DNA from: Escherichia phage FL04
Length of the DNA: 64,000 nucleotides
Sequence record: PP358550
Direction: 5' to 3' (one strand)
The translations under genes and the position numbers were made by a program. Below, piece by piece: positions 39,612 to 44,642 of the stretch (within the stretch, counting starts at the first letter, position 1; each line of letters starts with the position of its first letter). The notes beneath the pieces are model-generated. The model saw nothing but the letters and a program-made list of their open reading frames with translations. It ran no database searches and had not been told where the DNA came from.

Positions 39612-39941
39612 ATGTGGACAGTAGAAAAAATCGTTGACGAATCAACCGAAATTGTCTCGTGTGGCACTATTGAAGAATGTCTTAAAGCCGCTAACCGTGA
39701 ATGTATTACGGTTTATGAATCCCGTCGCGGTGATGGTAGCTTGATTCAAAGTGATTATCGTTACACCGCACATAAAATTGTATTCCGTTTCTGGGAAAAC
39801 GGTGTCAATGTCGGTGTCAGCTTACTGAAAATGTGGCGTGATTATTCCGAACGCTACTATGTTTCTCCTGATGATGGTAATGAATTTAAGACAGCAATCA
39901 CAGAAGAAAATGTAAACGAAAACTATTTCAAACTGATTTGA
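39612..39941 (+). CDS. hypothetical protein (109 aa)
   Basis: AGAGAGGA RBS. Confidence 0.55.
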   Translation: MWTVEKIVDESTEIVSCGTIEECLKAANRECITVYESRRGDGSLIQSDYRYTAHKIVFRFWENGVNVGVSLLKMWRDYSERYYVSPDDGNEFKTAITEENVNENYFKLI

Positions 39942-39956
39942 TGGGAGATTTATATT

Positions 39957-40526
39957 ATGATTCAATGTGTATTTGCTATTGGTGACACTAAAATGTCAGA
40001 TGAAAATTGGGCTTTTGGTTTTAAAGGCGGTTTACCGTGGGGGCGTCCAATTAAAAAGGACATGGAAAACTTTAAAATGCGCACTATGGGAGATGTTGAT
40101 CTTGCGGCGGTTGTAATGGGACGTAATACCTTTGAAAGTCTGCCTAAAGCACTGGAAGGTCGTCTTAATGTGGTTATTAGTACCGATGCCAGCAAGCCGA
40201 CACCGAAAGCCAAAAACGGCGACCAGCCTAATGTGTATACTGGAATTGAATTAAAGGATCTGTTAAAAGTCCTGGAGAAAACGCAAGGTTTGGTAAGTGT
40301 TATCGGTGGACCTTCCCTGATTGAAAAAGCGGTTGACTTTGCGGATCGTATTGTGTTAACATATGTTCAACGAGCAGGAATTAATGATCCGTTCGAATAT
40401 GATGTTGGTATCTCTAAGGAAATGATTCAGGAATTATATTTTGACTTTGCAACAAAAGAAGAACATAATTACTTCCTTGATGATTACCTGATCAGCGAAC
40501 AAATTTTAGAACGTAAGAAGGCGTAA
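39957..40526 (+). CDS. frd: dihydrofolate reductase
   Basis: 189 aa; FGFKGGLPWGRPIKKDMENFK, VVMGRNTFESLP, VIGGPSLIEKA matching DHFR motifs; T4 synteny (frd-td). Confidence 0.88.
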   Translation: MIQCVFAIGDTKMSDENWAFGFKGGLPWGRPIKKDMENFKMRTMGDVDLAAVVMGRNTFESLPKALEGRLNVVISTDASKPTPKAKNGDQPNVYTGIELKDLLKVLEKTQGLVSVIGGPSLIEKAVDFADRIVLTYVQRAGINDPFEYDVGISKEMIQELYFDFATKEEHNYFLDDYLISEQILERKKA

Positions 40527-40527
40527 C

Positions 40528-40620
40528 ATGAAAATTCTGACAGATTATGAGTGCAAACATTGTGGTGAATCTTTGATGTTTGCTGGTAGTCGGTGCTTAC
40601 ATTGCGGACGGGAACAATAA
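40528..40620 (+). CDS. small zinc-ribbon protein (30 aa)
   Basis: MKILTDYECKHCGESLMFAGSRCLHCGREQ; start overlaps frd stop; not in track. Confidence 0.35.
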   Translation: MKILTDYECKHCGESLMFAGSRCLHCGREQ

Positions 40621-40889
40621 TGAAAGTCGGTATTATTCAATTATGGACGGCTACCAGTGAAAACTACGCAGTAGCCGTAGATTATTACGGTTTACAATAT
40701 CTCTATGATGAAGCGAGCGCATCATGGCTTCCTGTGCAAGAAAATAGCGATATCTCAAGACCTGCTACTATATTCGACCGTGGCGTTGTCTTTATCGATA
40801 TTGACGAGACAGTAGCAAAACTGCGTAAGAAAGCAATCAATAAGAAAAAGGTGATGTGGGATGAAAGAATATTTGAAACTATTGCGTGA
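40620..40889 (+). CDS. hypothetical protein (89 aa)
   Basis: ATG 40620 overlapping upstream stop; 3-prime end overlaps td start by 29 nt. Confidence 0.45.
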   Translation: MKVGIIQLWTATSENYAVAVDYYGLQYLYDEASASWLPVQENSDISRPATIFDRGVVFIDIDETVAKLRKKAINKKKVMWDERIFETIA

Positions 40890-42093
40890 TGTTCTTGATA
40901 ATGGATGGCCTCGTGAAGACCGAACTGGGGTAGGTACGCTATCTAAATTCGGCGCAGAGATGCGAATTGATTTAAGCAAGGGTTTCCCATTACTGACCAC
41001 TAAAAAGATGGCTACAGCCTCTGTAATTGGCGAATTGCTATGGTTTATGGAGGGATCACTTGACCGCCGTCGCTTACAGGAAATTACACGCGGTAAGTTT
41101 GACGAAGAAGCCTTCGACATTTGGCGCGGCAACTGTCTTGATATGAAAGAAAAGAATCCTTTGCGATTCAATGGTTATAATGTCGGCAATATGTATGGTA
41201 TGGCATGGCGACGCAAACCGATTCATCCACACGGTGAAATCAAAATTAAGCGCGTTAAGAGCAAATATGCACATACATTTAAGCACCCGTGGGTAGAAGA
41301 CTTTACGCCAACCAATGAAACAGAAGACCGTTTATGTGCTATCTGGCGTGGTATGCGTTATGAAGAGTTTGATTCTGAATATAATCAATTCTTAGTAGCA
41401 GACCACTGGAAGACTCAATCTAATTTTGTTAATGATGCATATTGCTTGTGGGGATTCCAGGAATGGGTAGATGATGGTTATTTCGGTTATCTGCTTGATA
41501 GTGATTATCTGGGCGGGGATATTTTAGCGCCAGATACCACGATCTTTGCTAGTATGGACGTAGACACATCGAGCACTAAAGACGATGAAGAATATGTCTA
41601 TCGACCGAAGATTTGGGAAGACCAGTTACAAAACGTGATTGAACAAATTAAAAACAATCCAACGGATCGACGTATCATCATTGACTCATGGAACGTACAA
41701 GGAACACATAATGCTGTATTAGGTGTATGTCATCCTTTCGTGCAATTCTACGTCAATGAAGGTAAACTGTCTTGTATGTGGTTTCAGCGAAGCGTAGACA
41801 GCTTTTTAGGCTTGCCCTTTAACGTCGCCAGCTATGCGCTGTTAACTCACATCATAGCGAAAATGTGTGATCTTGAGGTAGGAGAACTGATTTTCTCTGG
41901 TGGAGATACTCACATTTACAAAAACCATTTTGATCAAGTTATGGAACAGTTAAGCCGTGTTCCGTTTGATAAACCAACGATTGAGTTGCCGGAATTTGAA
42001 TCTTTAGATGAGGTATTGACAAAGACTCCGAAAGACTTTAAAATTCACAACTATCAAAGCCATCCAGCAATCACCGCTCAAATGGCAGTATAA
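40861..42093 (+). CDS. td: thymidylate synthase with large internal in-frame insertion
   Basis: 410 aa; TS motifs DRTG.GT, LLWF, YG.AWR, DRRIII.SWN, active-site CHPFVQFYV, RSVDSFLGLPFN.ASYALLTHIIA, GGDTHIY; residues about 119-254 have no counterpart in canonical TS. Confidence 0.88.
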   Translation: MKEYLKLLRDVLDNGWPREDRTGVGTLSKFGAEMRIDLSKGFPLLTTKKMATASVIGELLWFMEGSLDRRRLQEITRGKFDEEAFDIWRGNCLDMKEKNPLRFNGYNVGNMYGMAWRRKPIHPHGEIKIKRVKSKYAHTFKHPWVEDFTPTNETEDRLCAIWRGMRYEEFDSEYNQFLVADHWKTQSNFVNDAYCLWGFQEWVDDGYFGYLLDSDYLGGDILAPDTTIFASMDVDTSSTKDDEEYVYRPKIWEDQLQNVIEQIKNNPTDRRIIIDSWNVQGTHNAVLGVCHPFVQFYVNEGKLSCMWFQRSVDSFLGLPFNVASYALLTHIIAKMCDLEVGELIFSGGDTHIYKNHFDQVMEQLSRVPFDKPTIELPEFESLDEVLTKTPKDFKIHNYQSHPAITAQMAV

Positions 42094-42098
42094 ACAAA

Positions 42099-42114
42099 GG
42101 GGGCGAAAGCCCCC
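42099..42114 (+). other. GC hairpin GGGGGC-GAAA-GCCCCC between td and nrdA, no U-tract
   Basis: Perfect 6-bp stem with GNRA tetraloop 6 nt after td stop. Confidence 0.5.
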
Positions 42115-42161
42115 AATATGGAGGATAAACTTGTTCCTGCTAAAATATGAAGTGAGGTAAT

Positions 42162-44405
42162 ATGATTAAAAATGTTGTTAAGTCTTCCGGTCTGACTGTT
42201 CCGTTTGAAAAAGAAAAAGTAATGAAAATTCTGGAAGCGGCAGCCGAAGGTCATAACGTTGATCCATATGAATTGTTTGATATGGTTGAACCACTTCTGA
42301 CAGAAGGTATGTCTACCAATGATATCCAGAAAGTATTGATTAAGGTCGCAGCAGATAACATTACTGTCGAAACACCCGATTATCAATATGTAGCAAGTAA
42401 CCTTGCAATGTTCGCGCTTCGCAAATCAGTATACGGTCAATTCCAACCTATTGATTTTTATAGCCATATTGAGCGTAATATTGCAACCGGAAAATATGAT
42501 CGCGAAATTCTGCAAAAGTATTCCCGTGAAGAAGTGGAATATCTGGAGAAATTCATCGACCATAAACTTGATTTTAAAATGACCTATGCTGGTGCGATGC
42601 AGTTAAAAGAGAAATATCTTGTTCAGGATCGCAGCACTAAGAAAATCATCGAAACACCGCAATTTGCGTATATGCTGATCGGTATGTGCTTGCATCAAGA
42701 AGAGACCGAAAATCGACTTGAACATGTGATTGATTTTTATAATGCGGTTGCGAATAAGCAAATCTCTCTGCCTACTCCGATTATGGCAGGTGTGCGTACC
42801 CCAACACGCCAATTTAGTTCGTGTGTGGTGATCGAAAGTGATGACTCATTGCAGGGTATTAATGAAACCGCAAATGCAATCATTAAGTATATTAGCAAGC
42901 GTGCTGGTATCGGTATCAACGCTGGCATGATTCGCGCGGAAGGATCTAAGATCGGGCATGGTGAAGTTCGTCATACTGGCGTTATCCCATTCTGGAAACA
43001 TTTTCAGACTGCCGTTAAGTCATGCTCACAAGGCGGTATTCGTGGCGGGGCAGCGACACTCTATTACCCAATGTGGCATTTAGAGTTTGAAAGTCTGATT
43101 GTGTTAAAGAACAATAAGGGCGTGGAAGATAACCGCATTCGCCATCTTGACTACGGCGTACAGATTAATAACCTGATGGTAGAGCGATTCCTTAAACGGG
43201 ATTACATTACTCTGTTTAGTCCAGATGTTGCGGGTGGCTTGTTGTGGGATCTATACTTCCGAGATGAGGAAGGTTTCCGCCAACTTTACGAAAAACTGGA
43301 AAAAGATCCGAGTGTTCGTAAAACTCGTGTTAAAGCCGAAGACCTGTTTTTAGCGGTGGCAATTGAACGTTTTAACACTGGTCGAATCTACCCAACGTTC
43401 ACAGACAACATGAACAATCACGGGGCGTTTATTCGTAATGTAGCACCGATTAAACAATCTAACCTGTGTTGTGAAATTGCACTGCCTACTAAACCGATGG
43501 GTCGTGATGATTCAGAAATTAGCCTATGTACTTTGGCAGCATATGTTTTAGGTAATTTCGATATCGAAAATATGGAAGAAGTAGAACGCATTGCTATGGT
43601 TATGGTGCGTGCACTTGACAACCTGTTAGATTATCAGGATTATCCTGTAGAACAAGCTCTGACAGCCAAAAAACGTCGCTCTCTGGGTGTTGGTGTTACT
43701 AACTTTGCATCATATCTAGCAGATAATTTCTTCACATATGAAGACGCTAACGAGTTTACGCATAAAACGTTTGAACGCTTGCAATATGCTCTGATTAAGG
43801 CTAGTGTGCGACTGGCTAAAGAGAAGGGTGCTTGCGAACTGATGCACGAAACACGCTATGGTCGCGGTGAACTGCCTATCGACTGGTACAAAAAGACAGT
43901 AGATGAACTGGTTGATCCGGTGTATGAGATGGATTGGGAAGAACTGCGCGAAGACCTGAAAAAATATGGCATTCGTAACAGTACACTGTCGGCGCTGATG
44001 CCTTGTGAGTCGTCTTCTCAGGTATCTAACAGCACAAACGGTATTGAACCGCCTCGCGGGATTGTATCGGTTAAAGGATCGAAAGAAGGACAATTTAATC
44101 AGGTTATTCCGAACGTAGAGAATAATGCTGATGTTATTGACCTGCTTTGGACACTGATCAAGAAAGGTAACAAGCCTTATCTGACACTGGCAGCAATCAT
44201 GCAGAAGTTTGTGGATCAGGCGATTAGTTCCAATACATCCTATGATCCAAGCACTTATAAGACTGGTAAAGTCGATATTGCTGATGTATTAGATGATATG
44301 TTGTTTGCTCAATATTACGGTCTGAAAACCCTGTATTATGCGAACGTTCGCGACGGTGCAGATGGTACGGAAGACGCTAGCGAGTGCTCATCTTGCAAGC
44401 TGTAA
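42162..44405 (+). CDS. nrdA: ribonucleotide reductase large subunit (class Ia)
   Basis: 747 aa; N-terminal ATP-cone region, catalytic region with SNLCCEI, C-terminal CSSCKL redox pair. Confidence 0.92.
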   Translation: MIKNVVKSSGLTVPFEKEKVMKILEAAAEGHNVDPYELFDMVEPLLTEGMSTNDIQKVLIKVAADNITVETPDYQYVASNLAMFALRKSVYGQFQPIDFYSHIERNIATGKYDREILQKYSREEVEYLEKFIDHKLDFKMTYAGAMQLKEKYLVQDRSTKKIIETPQFAYMLIGMCLHQEETENRLEHVIDFYNAVANKQISLPTPIMAGVRTPTRQFSSCVVIESDDSLQGINETANAIIKYISKRAGIGINAGMIRAEGSKIGHGEVRHTGVIPFWKHFQTAVKSCSQGGIRGGAATLYYPMWHLEFESLIVLKNNKGVEDNRIRHLDYGVQINNLMVERFLKRDYITLFSPDVAGGLLWDLYFRDEEGFRQLYEKLEKDPSVRKTRVKAEDLFLAVAIERFNTGRIYPTFTDNMNNHGAFIRNVAPIKQSNLCCEIALPTKPMGRDDSEISLCTLAAYVLGNFDIENMEEVERIAMVMVRALDNLLDYQDYPVEQALTAKKRRSLGVGVTNFASYLADNFFTYEDANEFTHKTFERLQYALIKASVRLAKEKGACELMHETRYGRGELPIDWYKKTVDELVDPVYEMDWEELREDLKKYGIRNSTLSALMPCESSSQVSNSTNGIEPPRGIVSVKGSKEGQFNQVIPNVENNADVIDLLWTLIKKGNKPYLTLAAIMQKFVDQAISSNTSYDPSTYKTGKVDIADVLDDMLFAQYYGLKTLYYANVRDGADGTEDASECSSCKL

Positions 44406-44413
44406 AATAAGTG

Positions 44414-44442
44414 TTGACGCGGGGAGAAATCCCCGCTATAAT
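44414..44442 (+). promoter_or_regulatory. PeSL-type early promoter with hairpin spacer
   Basis: TTGACG-GCGGGGA-GAAA-TCCCCGC-TATAAT. Confidence 0.65.
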
Positions 44443-44473
44443 ACAACCATCAAAAACAAGTGAGGATTTTATT

Positions 44474-44642
44474 ATGACCAAATTAAAATGTGTTGCTGTA
44501 GATTTTTGAACTAGCTGATAGCTTTGTTGTTGGTGATGAATATGATGCTCGACATGATGGGACTTGCTACTACGTCGAGGATGAATATGGTGTAGAATGG
44601 GCGATTCTTCCTGATGATAAATGTTTTGAGGTTGTCGGATAA
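44474..44642 (+). pseudogene. small ORF disrupted by +1 frameshift at a T5 run (or programmed frameshift / sequence error)
   Basis: MTKLKCVAVDF-stop at 44507; continuing in +1 frame from 44508 gives ELADSFVVGDEYDARHDGTCYYVEDEYGVEWAILPDDKCFEVVG; joined product resembles paralogs at 17666 and 47020. Confidence 0.45.

What the first reader, a model, noticed from the sequence alone, without database searches (positions are those of the whole stretch)
41215..41622. Thymidylate synthase carries an in-frame insertion of roughly 125-135 aa inside the catalytic domain
The td product is 410 aa against about 264-290 aa for canonical enzymes. All TS motifs are present and collinear, but between the YG.AWR block and the DQLQNVIEQIK...DRRIIIDSWN block there is an extra, Trp- and acidic-rich, stop-free segment. 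It is not an intein (no Cys/Ser at the N-terminal junction, no HN at the C-terminal junction) and is very unlikely to be a group I intron because it stays open in frame. It may be an inserted protein-interaction or regulatory domain.
Basis: seen in the sequence. Interest (0 to 1): 0.6.

Follow-up and report, generated by a model that had tools for sequence, protein, structure and literature searches.

The report
Endonuclease relic embedded in thymidylate synthase
The extra 136 amino acids in this phage's thymidylate synthase are a translated, well-folded but apparently inactivated remnant of a homing-endonuclease domain sitting in a surface loop, and fuller copies occupy the same loop in many phage and bacterial enzymes with no intein or intron to remove them.

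Summary
The td ORF (40861-42093, 410 aa) of this RB49-like Krischvirus carries 136 extra in-frame residues (aa 118-253, nt 41212-41619) between YGMAWR and DQLQ.

It is not an intein, an intron, or the L. casei-type small-domain insert. It is homologous to the atypical HNH domain of putative free-standing phage homing endonucleases, the "IPA-HNH" family exemplified by ICP1 gp59. Profile-profile probability is 92.6%, E 4.5e-7.

Longer versions (about 190-285 aa) occupy the same loop in at least 55 distinct thymidylate synthase (TS) clusters from phages, and in bacterial chromosomal thyA. These keep an N-terminal beta domain, a conserved D-K-D...N beta-beta-alpha site and, in the bacterial copy scanned, an I-HmuI NUMOD-like tail. 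TS genes 83-94% identical in their flanks differ only by the insert: Calidithermus chliarophilus versus three congeners, and phage P0024 versus P0031. That pattern is the signature of a mobile element.

The Krischvirus copy is truncated, acidic (net -12), and has lost the K and N of the motif. It is nevertheless fixed in 58 phages, modelled confidently by AlphaFold2 (block-mean pLDDT 74-98) and under purifying selection (dN/dS 0.22). I read it as a nuclease-dead relic, possibly exapted. No paper describing it was found.

The parts
40861..42093 (+). td gene, thymidylate synthase, 410 aa including the insert
   Evidence: ORF. PF00303 E 1.4e-84. TIGR03284 283 bits. Catalytic residues kept. 99.9% identical to Escherichia phage kaaroe td.
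40861..41211 (+). TS N-terminal core (aa 1-117), ending in YGMAWR
   Evidence: Aligns to E. coli TS 1-82 and onward. dN/dS 0.03.
41212..41619 (+). The inserted segment (aa 118-253): a truncated IPA-HNH-like homing-endonuclease module
   Evidence: Absent from E. coli and T4 TS. Homologous to the longer TS inserts. hhalign to free-standing IPA-HNH-type proteins gives probability 92.6%, E 4.5e-7. Weak phrog_2081 match, E 0.1. dN/dS 0.22.
41212..41250 (+). Ascending stalk strand (aa 118-130, RKPIHPHGEIKIK)
   Evidence: AlphaFold2 strand E118-130. The PHG and RK motifs are shared by most of the long inserts in the basal grade.
41317..41472 (+). Helical part of the module (aa 153-204). It holds the family-invariant W162, V179, W183 and N188-F189, and the CLWGFQEWVD motif (aa 195-204), which is specific to the phage TS-embedded copies.
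   Evidence: Helices 153-169, 181-193 and 199-204. Invariant columns in A3. Motif positions.
41488..41553 (+). Beta-hairpin corresponding to the two strands of the beta-beta-alpha (HNH-like) motif: LLDSDY (aa 211-216) and GGDILAPDTTIF (aa 218-229). The family's D-K-D is D-S-D here.
   Evidence: Strands 210-213 and 228-231. Column table. The triad is not conserved in the short-insert clade.
41554..41592 (+). Acidic linker (aa 232-244, MDVDTSSTKDDEE). It replaces the alpha-helix of the beta-beta-alpha motif (LNKxLN) and the C-terminal module that is NUMOD-like in the bacterial copy.
   Evidence: No helix in the model after strand 228-231. N185->D and N189->T. The C-terminal module is present in long inserts.
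41593..41622 (+). Descending stalk strand (aa 245-254, YVYRPKIWED), rejoining the TS core at DQLQ
   Evidence: Strand E245-254. The RP.I motif is nearly invariant in TS-embedded copies.
41620..42090 (+). TS C-terminal core (aa 254-410) with catalytic Cys290
   Evidence: Aligns to E. coli TS 110-264. Residue map.

Best explanation
The segment is a relic of a homing-endonuclease domain. It was inserted in frame into a permissive surface loop of thymidylate synthase and is translated as part of the enzyme, not spliced out.

The ancestral element belongs to the atypical-HNH 'IPA-HNH' family of putative phage homing endonucleases. It consisted of a small beta domain, a helical/beta-beta-alpha module with a conserved D-K-D...N site, and a C-terminal module that is I-HmuI NUMOD-like in the bacterial copy. 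A two-stranded beta stalk carries it out of the loop that follows the YG.QWR motif.

In its full form the element behaves as a mobile insertion specific for this one site of thyA/td, in both phages and bacteria. The inferred mechanism is that the TS-endonuclease chimera cuts insert-free alleles, and recombinational repair then copies the insert in.

In the Krischvirus lineage the element has been cut down to the stalk plus the helical/beta-hairpin core. It has lost the flanking beta domain and C-terminal module, and the Lys and Asn of the putative active site, and it has become acidic. It is therefore most likely no longer a nuclease.

The core is retained under purifying selection. Either it has become structurally coupled to TS, or it has acquired a secondary role. 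TS chemistry itself is unaffected.

Shown: homology, placement, fold confidence, selection, distribution, and presence/absence polymorphism. Inferred: translation without splicing, homing by the full-length forms, and loss of nuclease activity in this copy.
For: Homology
- Long TS inserts hit PHROG phrog_2081 'HNH endonuclease' at E 1.7e-33. The bacterial copy scores E 1.1e-47.
- tblastn with the phiKp_21 insert finds 1435 phage records, and the rows shown are mostly free-standing putative HEGs. It also finds the Krischvirus td insert at E about 1e-11.
- The short-insert clade profile against the free-standing proteins (ICP1 gp59 and others) gives hhalign probability 92.6%, E 4.5e-7.
- ICP1 gp59 is a named IPA-HNH HEG (PMC10448857).
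- The residues invariant across the family (W, V, W, NF, LD.D) are kept in the window.

Fold
- The AlphaFold2 model of the whole protein has pLDDT 92.6 and pTM 0.91. The insert is confidently modelled as a stalked domain.
- The long-insert model has pLDDT 90.8.
- BFVD hits are another long TS, then free-standing phage proteins, some of them named homing endonuclease or I-HmuI NUMOD-like.

Translation and selection
- Among 9 Krischvirus td genes, dN/dS is 0.22 in the insert versus 0.01-0.03 in the non-mosaic core.
- 26 of 44 variable sites are at third codon positions.
- There is a 12-nt in-frame indel.

Mobility
- P0024 (552 aa) and P0031 (276 aa) are 92% and 83% identical in the flanks, lie in syntenic phage contigs, and differ by the insert.
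- Calidithermus chliarophilus thyA (455 aa, plsY-thyA-folA context) has flanks 87% and 94% identical to C. roseus. C. roseus, C. terrae and C. timidus have 264-267-aa TSs 91-94% identical over the aligned part.
- Long inserts are scattered in a TS core tree.
- At least 55 TS clusters at 50% identity carry the module.

Decay in this copy
- K164->S, Y172->L, N185->D and N189->T, and the triad is variable within the short-insert clade.
- Net charge is -12, against +1 to +17 for all but two of the long inserts (-2 and -6).
- There is no helix after the hairpin.
Against: - No experiment shows that any member of the IPA-HNH family cuts DNA. The naming paper says homing is unverified.
- The family lacks the canonical catalytic His, and no Pfam HNH model matches it.
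- The window's own insert matches phrog_2081 only at E 0.1. It is not found by an HMM built from five free-standing proteins alone. Its assignment therefore rests on profile-profile comparison and on the chain through the longer inserts.
- dN/dS of 0.22, fixation in a whole genus, and two independent reductions to the same ~140-aa core could mean a selected function rather than a passive relic.
- Absence of splicing is inferred, not measured.
Confidence: 0.72

Rival explanations
1. Exapted functional domain. The retained core is kept because it now does something useful for the phage, for example docking Td into the T4-type dNTP-synthesising complex, binding RNA or DNA for autoregulation, or modulating TS activity. 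This is compatible with the same endonuclease origin.
For: - Purifying selection, dN/dS 0.22.
- Fixed in 58 of 58 Krischvirus records.
- 48-55% identity in the insert where the core is 62-72% identical.
- Strongly conserved motifs CLWGFQEWVD and GGDILAPDT.IF, even though the putative catalytic triad has decayed.
- Two independent lineages, Krischvirus-type and P0010/P0014, were reduced to the same core.
Against: - No partner, ligand or regulatory phenotype is known.
- The conserved motifs may only be the packing interface with TS and the fold's hydrophobic core.
- The strongly acidic charge argues against nucleic-acid binding.
- Selection is 7- to 15-fold weaker than on the TS core.
Confidence: 0.3
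2. The Krischvirus insert is still an active homing or competition nuclease.
For: It keeps both Asp and the Tyr of the D-x-D-Y motif, as well as T226 and F229. A mosaic divergent patch starts at the 3' junction of the insert in JSE and KFS-EC. This resembles a co-conversion tract.
Against: - It has lost the Lys, the two Asn, the helix of the beta-beta-alpha motif, the N-terminal beta domain and the C-terminal module.
- The triad is not conserved among its closest relatives.
- Net charge is -12.
- No insert-free Krischvirus td allele exists among the 58 records to home into.
Confidence: 0.05
3. The segment is removed before the mature enzyme forms, by protein splicing, RNA splicing or translational bypassing.
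For: Mobile elements in essential genes normally rely on splicing. T4 td itself carries a group I intron (established knowledge).
Against: - No intein/Hint match at E<=10, and none of the obligatory junction residues (sequence).
- No Rfam family at E<=1 in 39900-44500 apart from a chance 5.8S hit inside nrdA.
- Coding-type substitution pattern and in-frame indels.
- AlphaFold2 places it confidently as a docked domain on a beta stalk.
- The same arrangement occurs in the bacterial thyA gene that sits in a plsY-thyA-folA context.
Confidence: 0.03
4. It is a lineage-specific elaboration of the TS small domain with no relation to mobile elements, and the similarity to endonucleases is spurious.
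For: This loop is a known indel hot spot. Eukaryotic TS has a short insert here (established knowledge), and many phage TSs have 28-34 aa here.
Against: - The long forms match HNH-endonuclease PHROGs at E 1e-33 to 1e-47.
- Thousands of free-standing homologues exist.
- The window insert is collinear with them.
- Nearly identical TS genes occur with and without the insert.
Confidence: 0.03

Closest known systems
IPA-HNH homing endonuclease genes (ICP1 gp59, gp115-116, gp209; Barth, Dunham & Seed 2023, PMC10448857)
   Same: The helical plus beta-hairpin module, with W...W..NF...LD.D...P.T..F, is homologous. Like these genes, the module associates with nucleotide-metabolism and replication genes. 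In its long forms it shows presence/absence variation.
   Different: - IPA-HNH genes are free-standing ORFs with a C-terminal AP2 domain.
- Here the domain is fused in frame inside a host enzyme's loop and has no AP2.
- The window copy lacks the conserved Lys and Asn.
- The paper does not mention thymidylate synthase at all (0 occurrences).
ShiLan domain of actinobacteriophage DNA methylases (Arsenault, Gosselin & Gogarten 2025, PMC11855218)
   Same: It is an insertion in a phage enzyme gene that reads through in frame. It has no intein or intron features, shows homing-like distribution, and is predicted to loop out of the host protein.
   Different: In ShiLan the HNH endonuclease is encoded in a different reading frame, hidden inside the insertion. 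Here the endonuclease-like domain is in the host frame. No alternative-frame ORF of 40 aa or more lies within 41300-41620.
Inteins with HNH or LAGLIDADG homing endonucleases, including those in phage ThyX (PMC5050341; bioRxiv 10.1101/2025.01.02.630785)
   Same: An in-frame mobile element carrying an endonuclease domain, inserted at a conserved site of a nucleotide-metabolism enzyme.
   Different: There is no Hint splicing domain and no junction nucleophiles. The insert apparently stays in the mature protein.
T4 td group I intron with I-TevI
   Same: The same host gene (td) in a related phage family is invaded by a homing endonuclease element.
   Different: The T4 element is an RNA intron carrying a GIY-YIG endonuclease ORF, at another site of td. 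Here there is no intron, and the domain is part of the polypeptide.
Lactobacillus casei TS 50-residue small-domain insert and eukaryotic TS insert 2
   Same: All are length variation in the surface 'small domain' region of TS. The present site coincides with that of eukaryotic insert 2 (alignment plus established knowledge).
   Different: The L. casei insert lies before the YG.QWR motif. Eukaryotic insert 2 is about 8 residues. Neither is related to endonucleases.
PacI (HNH beta-beta-alpha-metal restriction endonuclease, PDB 3m7k)
   Different: Sequence identity is 9% and the score is marginal. PacI has two zinc sites that are absent here.

Membership tests
Thymidylate synthase ThyA (PF00303 / TIGR03284) | Significant full-length match to the family profile | tested here: met
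Thymidylate synthase ThyA (PF00303 / TIGR03284) | Catalytic Cys146 and the dUMP/folate-binding residues (R21, E58, Y94, R126', R127', R166, S167, D169, N177, H207, Y209) | tested here: met
   All are conserved. N177 is kept, so dUMP rather than dCMP specificity is expected (established knowledge).
Thymidylate synthase ThyA (PF00303 / TIGR03284) | Enzymatic activity and obligate homodimer | not testable with these tools
   Needs a biochemical assay or thyA complementation.
IPA-HNH homing endonucleases (PMC10448857) | Homology to the atypical N-terminal HNH domain of ICP1 gp59-type proteins | tested here: met
   hhalign of the short-insert clade against free-standing proteins including gp59 gives probability 92.6%, E 4.5e-7 over 71 columns. 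Long TS inserts match by tblastn and PHROG at E 1e-11 to 1e-47.
IPA-HNH homing endonucleases (PMC10448857) | C-terminal AP2 DNA-binding domain | tested here: not met
   No AP2 in the window insert or in the long TS inserts. AP2 is present in two free-standing relatives, E 4e-5 and 1.6e-5. The bacterial TS insert instead has an I-HmuI NUMOD-like match at 25.1 bits, just below the cut-off of 27.
IPA-HNH homing endonucleases (PMC10448857) | Free-standing gene with variable presence among close relatives | tested here: not met
   The window copy is embedded in td and present in all 58 Krischvirus records. Variable presence is seen only for the long forms.
IPA-HNH homing endonucleases (PMC10448857) | Conserved polar residues of the beta-beta-alpha site (D-K-D-Y ... 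N ... N) | tested here: not met
   The window has D-S-D-Y, N185->D and N189->T, and no helix after the hairpin. The triad varies in the short-insert clade.
IPA-HNH homing endonucleases (PMC10448857) | Site-specific DNA cleavage and homing | not testable with these tools
   This is unverified experimentally even for the named family.
Canonical HNH nucleases (Pfam HNH, HNH_3 and related) | Match to an HNH profile, with the catalytic His at the end of strand 1 | tested here: not met
   No Pfam HNH match for window, long, bacterial or free-standing copies at E<=1-10. The position holds Lys in the family and Ser in the window.
Inteins | Hint splicing domain, Cys/Ser/Ala at the first residue, His-Asn at the end, and Cys/Ser/Thr at +1 | tested here: not met
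   No Hint/intein family at E<=10. The junctions read WR|RKPIH and KIWE|DQLQ.
Group I / group II introns | Ribozyme core detectable by covariance model, with no coding constraint in the host frame | tested here: not met
   No intron family at E<=1 in 39900-44500. dN/dS 0.22, third-position bias and in-frame indels.
ShiLan-type hidden out-of-frame endonuclease insertions | Endonuclease ORF in an alternative frame of the insertion | tested here: not met
   The only other-frame ORFs of 40 aa or more are 41171..41296 (+) and 41074..41286 (-), at the 5' edge. The endonuclease homology is in the td frame.
L. casei-type long small-domain TS | About 50 extra residues located before the YG.QWR motif | tested here: not met
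   The extra residues lie after YGMAWR (aa 118-253). The position of the L. casei insert is from established knowledge.

The most novel reading that the evidence does not exclude
The window's insert is the decayed member of an undescribed class of mobile element. The element is a homing endonuclease that invades an essential gene (thyA/td) directly, as an in-frame domain in a permissive surface loop. It needs no intein or intron, because the host enzyme tolerates it.

The full-length forms are active in both bacteria and phages and spread across phyla. They may use the obligate TS homodimer to bring two nuclease heads together.

In Krischvirus the remnant core may have been domesticated for a phage-specific role.
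Probability: 0.4. Interest if true: 0.85.

Novelty: new variant of a known kind. Interest (0 to 1): 0.68.

Why it matters
The standard view is that a homing endonuclease can live inside an essential gene only if a self-splicing intron or intein removes it. Here an endonuclease-type domain sits unspliced inside thymidylate synthase, at one and the same loop. It occurs in dozens of phage lineages and in bacterial chromosomal thyA genes, and nearly identical alleles exist with and without it.

If the long forms home, this is a third way for such elements to invade essential genes, by domain insertion into a tolerant loop. It would also give a natural series running from an active invader to a decayed or domesticated remnant, the Krischvirus copy.

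There are practical points as well.
- The TS loop after YG.QWR is shown to accept folded domains of up to about 285 residues, which is useful for enzyme engineering.
- Some of these TS genes are currently mis-annotated as 'HNH endonuclease' or 'hypothetical protein'.
- For the window itself the result is modest: an ordinary, probably active TS carrying a fossil.

Tried and rejected
- Searching the word-indexed protein database with the insert alone found nothing. The full-length query was needed.
- Pfam, NCBIfam and PDB sequence searches have no family for the module.
- The scan of viral contigs with the whole-protein alignment returned mainly ordinary short TS genes, because the search patterns came from the core.
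- The AlphaFold database library was not available.
A narrower alignment worked.
- An HMM built from five free-standing proteins does not detect the window insert, and no second IPA-HNH-like ORF exists in the 64-kb window.
- Intein, group I intron, hidden out-of-frame ORF and L. casei-type small-domain explanations were each tested and rejected (see the membership table).
- Literature searches for a description of the RB49 td insert or of endonuclease domains inside ThyA found none.
Contacts between the insert and the TS core, and the insert's distance from the active site and dimer interface, could not be measured.
Full report
**Where the window comes from and what the gene is.** The region is 99.9% identical to Escherichia phage kaaroe and 97.7% to RB49 (genus Krischvirus, Straboviridae). 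The gene order is frd, a 98-aa ORF, td, nrdA. The td ORF (40861..42093, +) encodes 410 aa. Pfam PF00303 matches residues 2-410 (E 1.4e-84) and NCBIfam TIGR03284 passes its cut-off. E. coli TS structures align to residues 1-82 and 254-410. All catalytic and ligand-binding residues checked are conserved except W83->N, which T4 Td also has.

**The observation.** The extra residues lie between YGMAWR (aa 112-117) and DQLQ (aa 254-257). The segment has 6 Trp and 19% acidic residues. A stop-free frame of this length occurs in only 0.015% of shuffles. The segment is present in all 58 Krischvirus records retrieved, at 90-100% protein identity. The site is not that of the L. casei small-domain insert, which precedes YG.QWR. 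It coincides with the short eukaryotic 'insert 2' (established knowledge plus the alignment).

**It is coding and folded, not spliced.**
- No Rfam family, including introns, matches 39900-44500 at E<=1. The one exception is a chance 5.8S hit inside nrdA.
- No intein or Hint domain matches at E<=10. The junctions read WR|RKPIH and KIWE|DQLQ, which lack intein nucleophiles.
- Among nine Krischvirus td genes the insert has dN/dS 0.22, against 0.03 and 0.01 for the non-mosaic cores. 26 of 44 variable sites are at third codon positions. One indel is exactly 12 nt.
- AlphaFold2, run on a 29-sequence alignment, models the whole protein at mean pLDDT 92.6 and pTM 0.91. In the insert, block means are 74-98.
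- The modelled insert has two long strands (118-130 and 245-254) forming a stalk, helices 153-169, 181-193 and 199-204, and a hairpin at 210-213/228-231.
- No other-frame ORF of 40 aa or more lies inside the insert beyond its first 85 nt. The ShiLan-type hidden endonuclease (PMC11855218) therefore does not apply.

**What the domain is.** A full-length search found a set of long TS proteins of 401-613 aa. Their extra residues align with the window's insert.
- The longer inserts, about 245 aa as in Klebsiella phage phiKp_21, match PHROG phrog_2081 'HNH endonuclease' at E 1.7e-33, as well as phrog_953 and phrog_374. The window's insert matches phrog_2081 collinearly but weakly, at E 0.1.
- tblastn with the phiKp_21 insert hits 1435 phage records. 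The rows shown are mostly free-standing genes annotated HNH endonuclease or hypothetical, next to DNA polymerase, primase and similar genes. It also hits the Krischvirus td insert at E about 1e-11.
- One of these relatives is ICP1 gp59. Barth et al. (PMC10448857) name its family 'IPA-HNH': an atypical HNH domain detectable only by profile-profile search, usually followed by AP2, with homing not yet verified.
- A profile of the short-insert clade (window, P0002-P0006) aligns to a profile of five free-standing proteins including gp59. The probability is 92.6%, E 4.5e-7, covering Td residues 148-230.
- The columns invariant across free-standing and embedded copies (W, V, W, N-F, L-D-x-D) are all kept in the window.
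- In the viral structure library the model matches another long TS and then many free-standing phage proteins. A few of these are named homing endonuclease or I-HmuI NUMOD-like.
- Pfam, NCBIfam and PDB sequences have no model for the module.

**The element is widespread and behaves as a mobile insertion at one TS site.**
- A profile of the inserts finds 14,847 proteins at E<=1e-3 among 1.84 billion cluster representatives, and 5,270 at E<=1e-10. Of the 79 top hits longer than 400 aa, 55 are thymidylate synthases.
- In a neighbour-joining tree of TS cores with the insert removed, the long-insert TSs form a basal grade that contains the Krischvirus clade. Three further long-insert TSs (P0023, P0024, P0025) are each nested separately among insert-free TSs or TSs with only 28-34 extra residues.
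- P0024 (552 aa) and P0031 (276 aa) are 92% and 83% identical on either side of the site. They sit in syntenic phage contigs (DHFR-TS) that are about 78% identical in DNA.
- The same module sits at the same site in bacterial chromosomal thyA. The cases are Calidithermus chliarophilus DSM 9957 (455 aa, plsY-thyA-folA context, on a 928-kb contig), Hymenobacter ruricola, Fictibacillus nanhaiensis and several MAGs.
- C. chliarophilus ThyA has flanks 87% and 94% identical to C. roseus. The 264-267-aa enzymes of C. roseus, C. terrae and C. timidus are 91-94% identical over the aligned part. It differs from C. roseus by a 194-aa insert.
- That bacterial insert matches phrog_2081 at E 1e-47. It has an I-HmuI NUMOD-like match at its C-terminus, at 25.1 bits against a cut-off of 27.
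- It aligns directly to the window's insert at E 9e-5.
- Nearly identical host genes with and without the insert, at an identical site, in distant TS lineages, is the classical signature of homing. Cleavage itself has not been shown.

**The Krischvirus copy is a reduced, probably inactive derivative.**
- Compared with the long forms it lacks the N-terminal beta domain and the C-terminal module.
- In the beta-beta-alpha region the family's conserved D-K-D-Y...N...N is D-S-D-Y...D...T in the window. No helix follows the hairpin.
- Within the short-insert clade the triad is not conserved (LDSD, LDCD, LSCD, LTQK, LSCK, LSLV). The motifs CLWGFQEWVD and GGDILAPDT.IF and the stalk are conserved.
- The insert has net charge -12, against +1 to +17 for all but two of the long inserts, which are -2 and -6.
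- A second lineage (P0010/P0014) was independently reduced to a similar ~145-aa core.
- In more distant relatives the insert is 48-55% identical where the core is 62-72% identical.
- Taken together, the nuclease function seems lost while the core is kept. Either it has become part of the enzyme's fold, or it has a new role.

**Mechanism, with shown and inferred steps.**
- Shown: homology to IPA-HNH-type domains, the insertion point, the coding constraint, the confident stalked-domain model, presence/absence polymorphism of long forms, and decay of the putative catalytic residues in this lineage.
- Inferred: an ancestral endonuclease gene inserted in frame in the loop after YG.QWR.
- Inferred: the chimera remains an active TS because the module projects from the surface on a beta stalk.
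- Inferred: full-length chimeras cut insert-free alleles and spread by repair.
- Inferred: in Krischvirus the element lost its peripheral modules and its activity, leaving a fixed remnant.
- The idea that the TS homodimer pairs two nuclease heads is speculation.

**Comparison with known systems and novelty.**
- The nearest named family is IPA-HNH (PMC10448857). Membership as a homing endonuclease gene fails on three features: AP2, a free-standing gene with variable presence, and the conserved polar residues. The correct claim is 'derived from', not 'is'.
- The nearest described phenomenon is the ShiLan domain (PMC11855218). There the endonuclease is out of frame.
- Inteins and the T4 td intron are functional analogues only.
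- Six full-text searches plus targeted reads found no description of the RB49-type td insert or of endonuclease domains inside ThyA. Subscription-only literature was not covered.
- I rate it a new variant of a known kind. Interest is moderate to high for the family, and lower for the window's own fossil copy.

Noticed in passing
window 41593-41940 (td aa ~245-360), compared with L085 (JSE) and L090 (KFS-EC): The td genes of JSE and KFS-EC carry a mosaic patch with only 62-83% nucleotide identity to the window, against 92-100% elsewhere in the gene. The patch begins at the 3' junction of the insert, so it looks like a recombination or co-conversion tract with a divergent td allele.
   Followed up: partly
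window 41374-41385 (td aa 172-175, SEYN): A 12-nt in-frame indel inside the insert separates Krischvirus td alleles of 410-411 aa from those of 406-407 aa.
   Followed up: yes
L001:2138-3571 (Vibrio phage D181; also D148 and D69): A 477-aa thymidylate synthase carrying the same kind of insert is annotated 'HNH endonuclease' in the public record. The phiKp_21 homologue is annotated 'hypothetical protein'.
   Followed up: yes
P0027, P0060, P0035, P0055, P0071 (TS loop after YG.QWR): Many phage TSs have a 28-34-aa insert at the same loop. In some, the N-terminal part (HIERKNFGPAH) resembles the first stalk strand of the long inserts (IERKTYIDEY.E.H). These may be stalk-only deletion scars, or a pre-existing hairpin that the endonuclease invaded.
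   Followed up: partly
L100:2117-3481, L105:2075-3433, L107:1778-3421: Bacterial chromosomal thyA genes of Calidithermus chliarophilus, Hymenobacter ruricola and Fictibacillus nanhaiensis carry the full-length module at the same site. Three congeners of Calidithermus lack it.
   Followed up: yes
window 40593-40889 (+): A 98-aa ORF, the homologue of RB49ORF236c and annotated hypothetical in all relatives, overlaps the start of td by 29 nt.
   Followed up: no
L088:1916-2218 (Shigella phage SSG23): An extra 100-aa hypothetical ORF lies between td and nrdA. It is absent from the window and from the other Krischvirus loci fetched.
   Followed up: no
P0010, P0014 (417-418 aa TS): This is a second, independent reduction of a ~245-aa insert to ~145 aa. 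It is nested within the phiKp_21-like long-insert clade and keeps the same central core as the Krischvirus copy.
   Followed up: partly
window 42596-42707 (+), inside nrdA: A weak Rfam 5.8S rRNA match (18.1 bits against a gathering score of 42, E 0.15). It lies within a coding region and is almost certainly chance.
   Followed up: no
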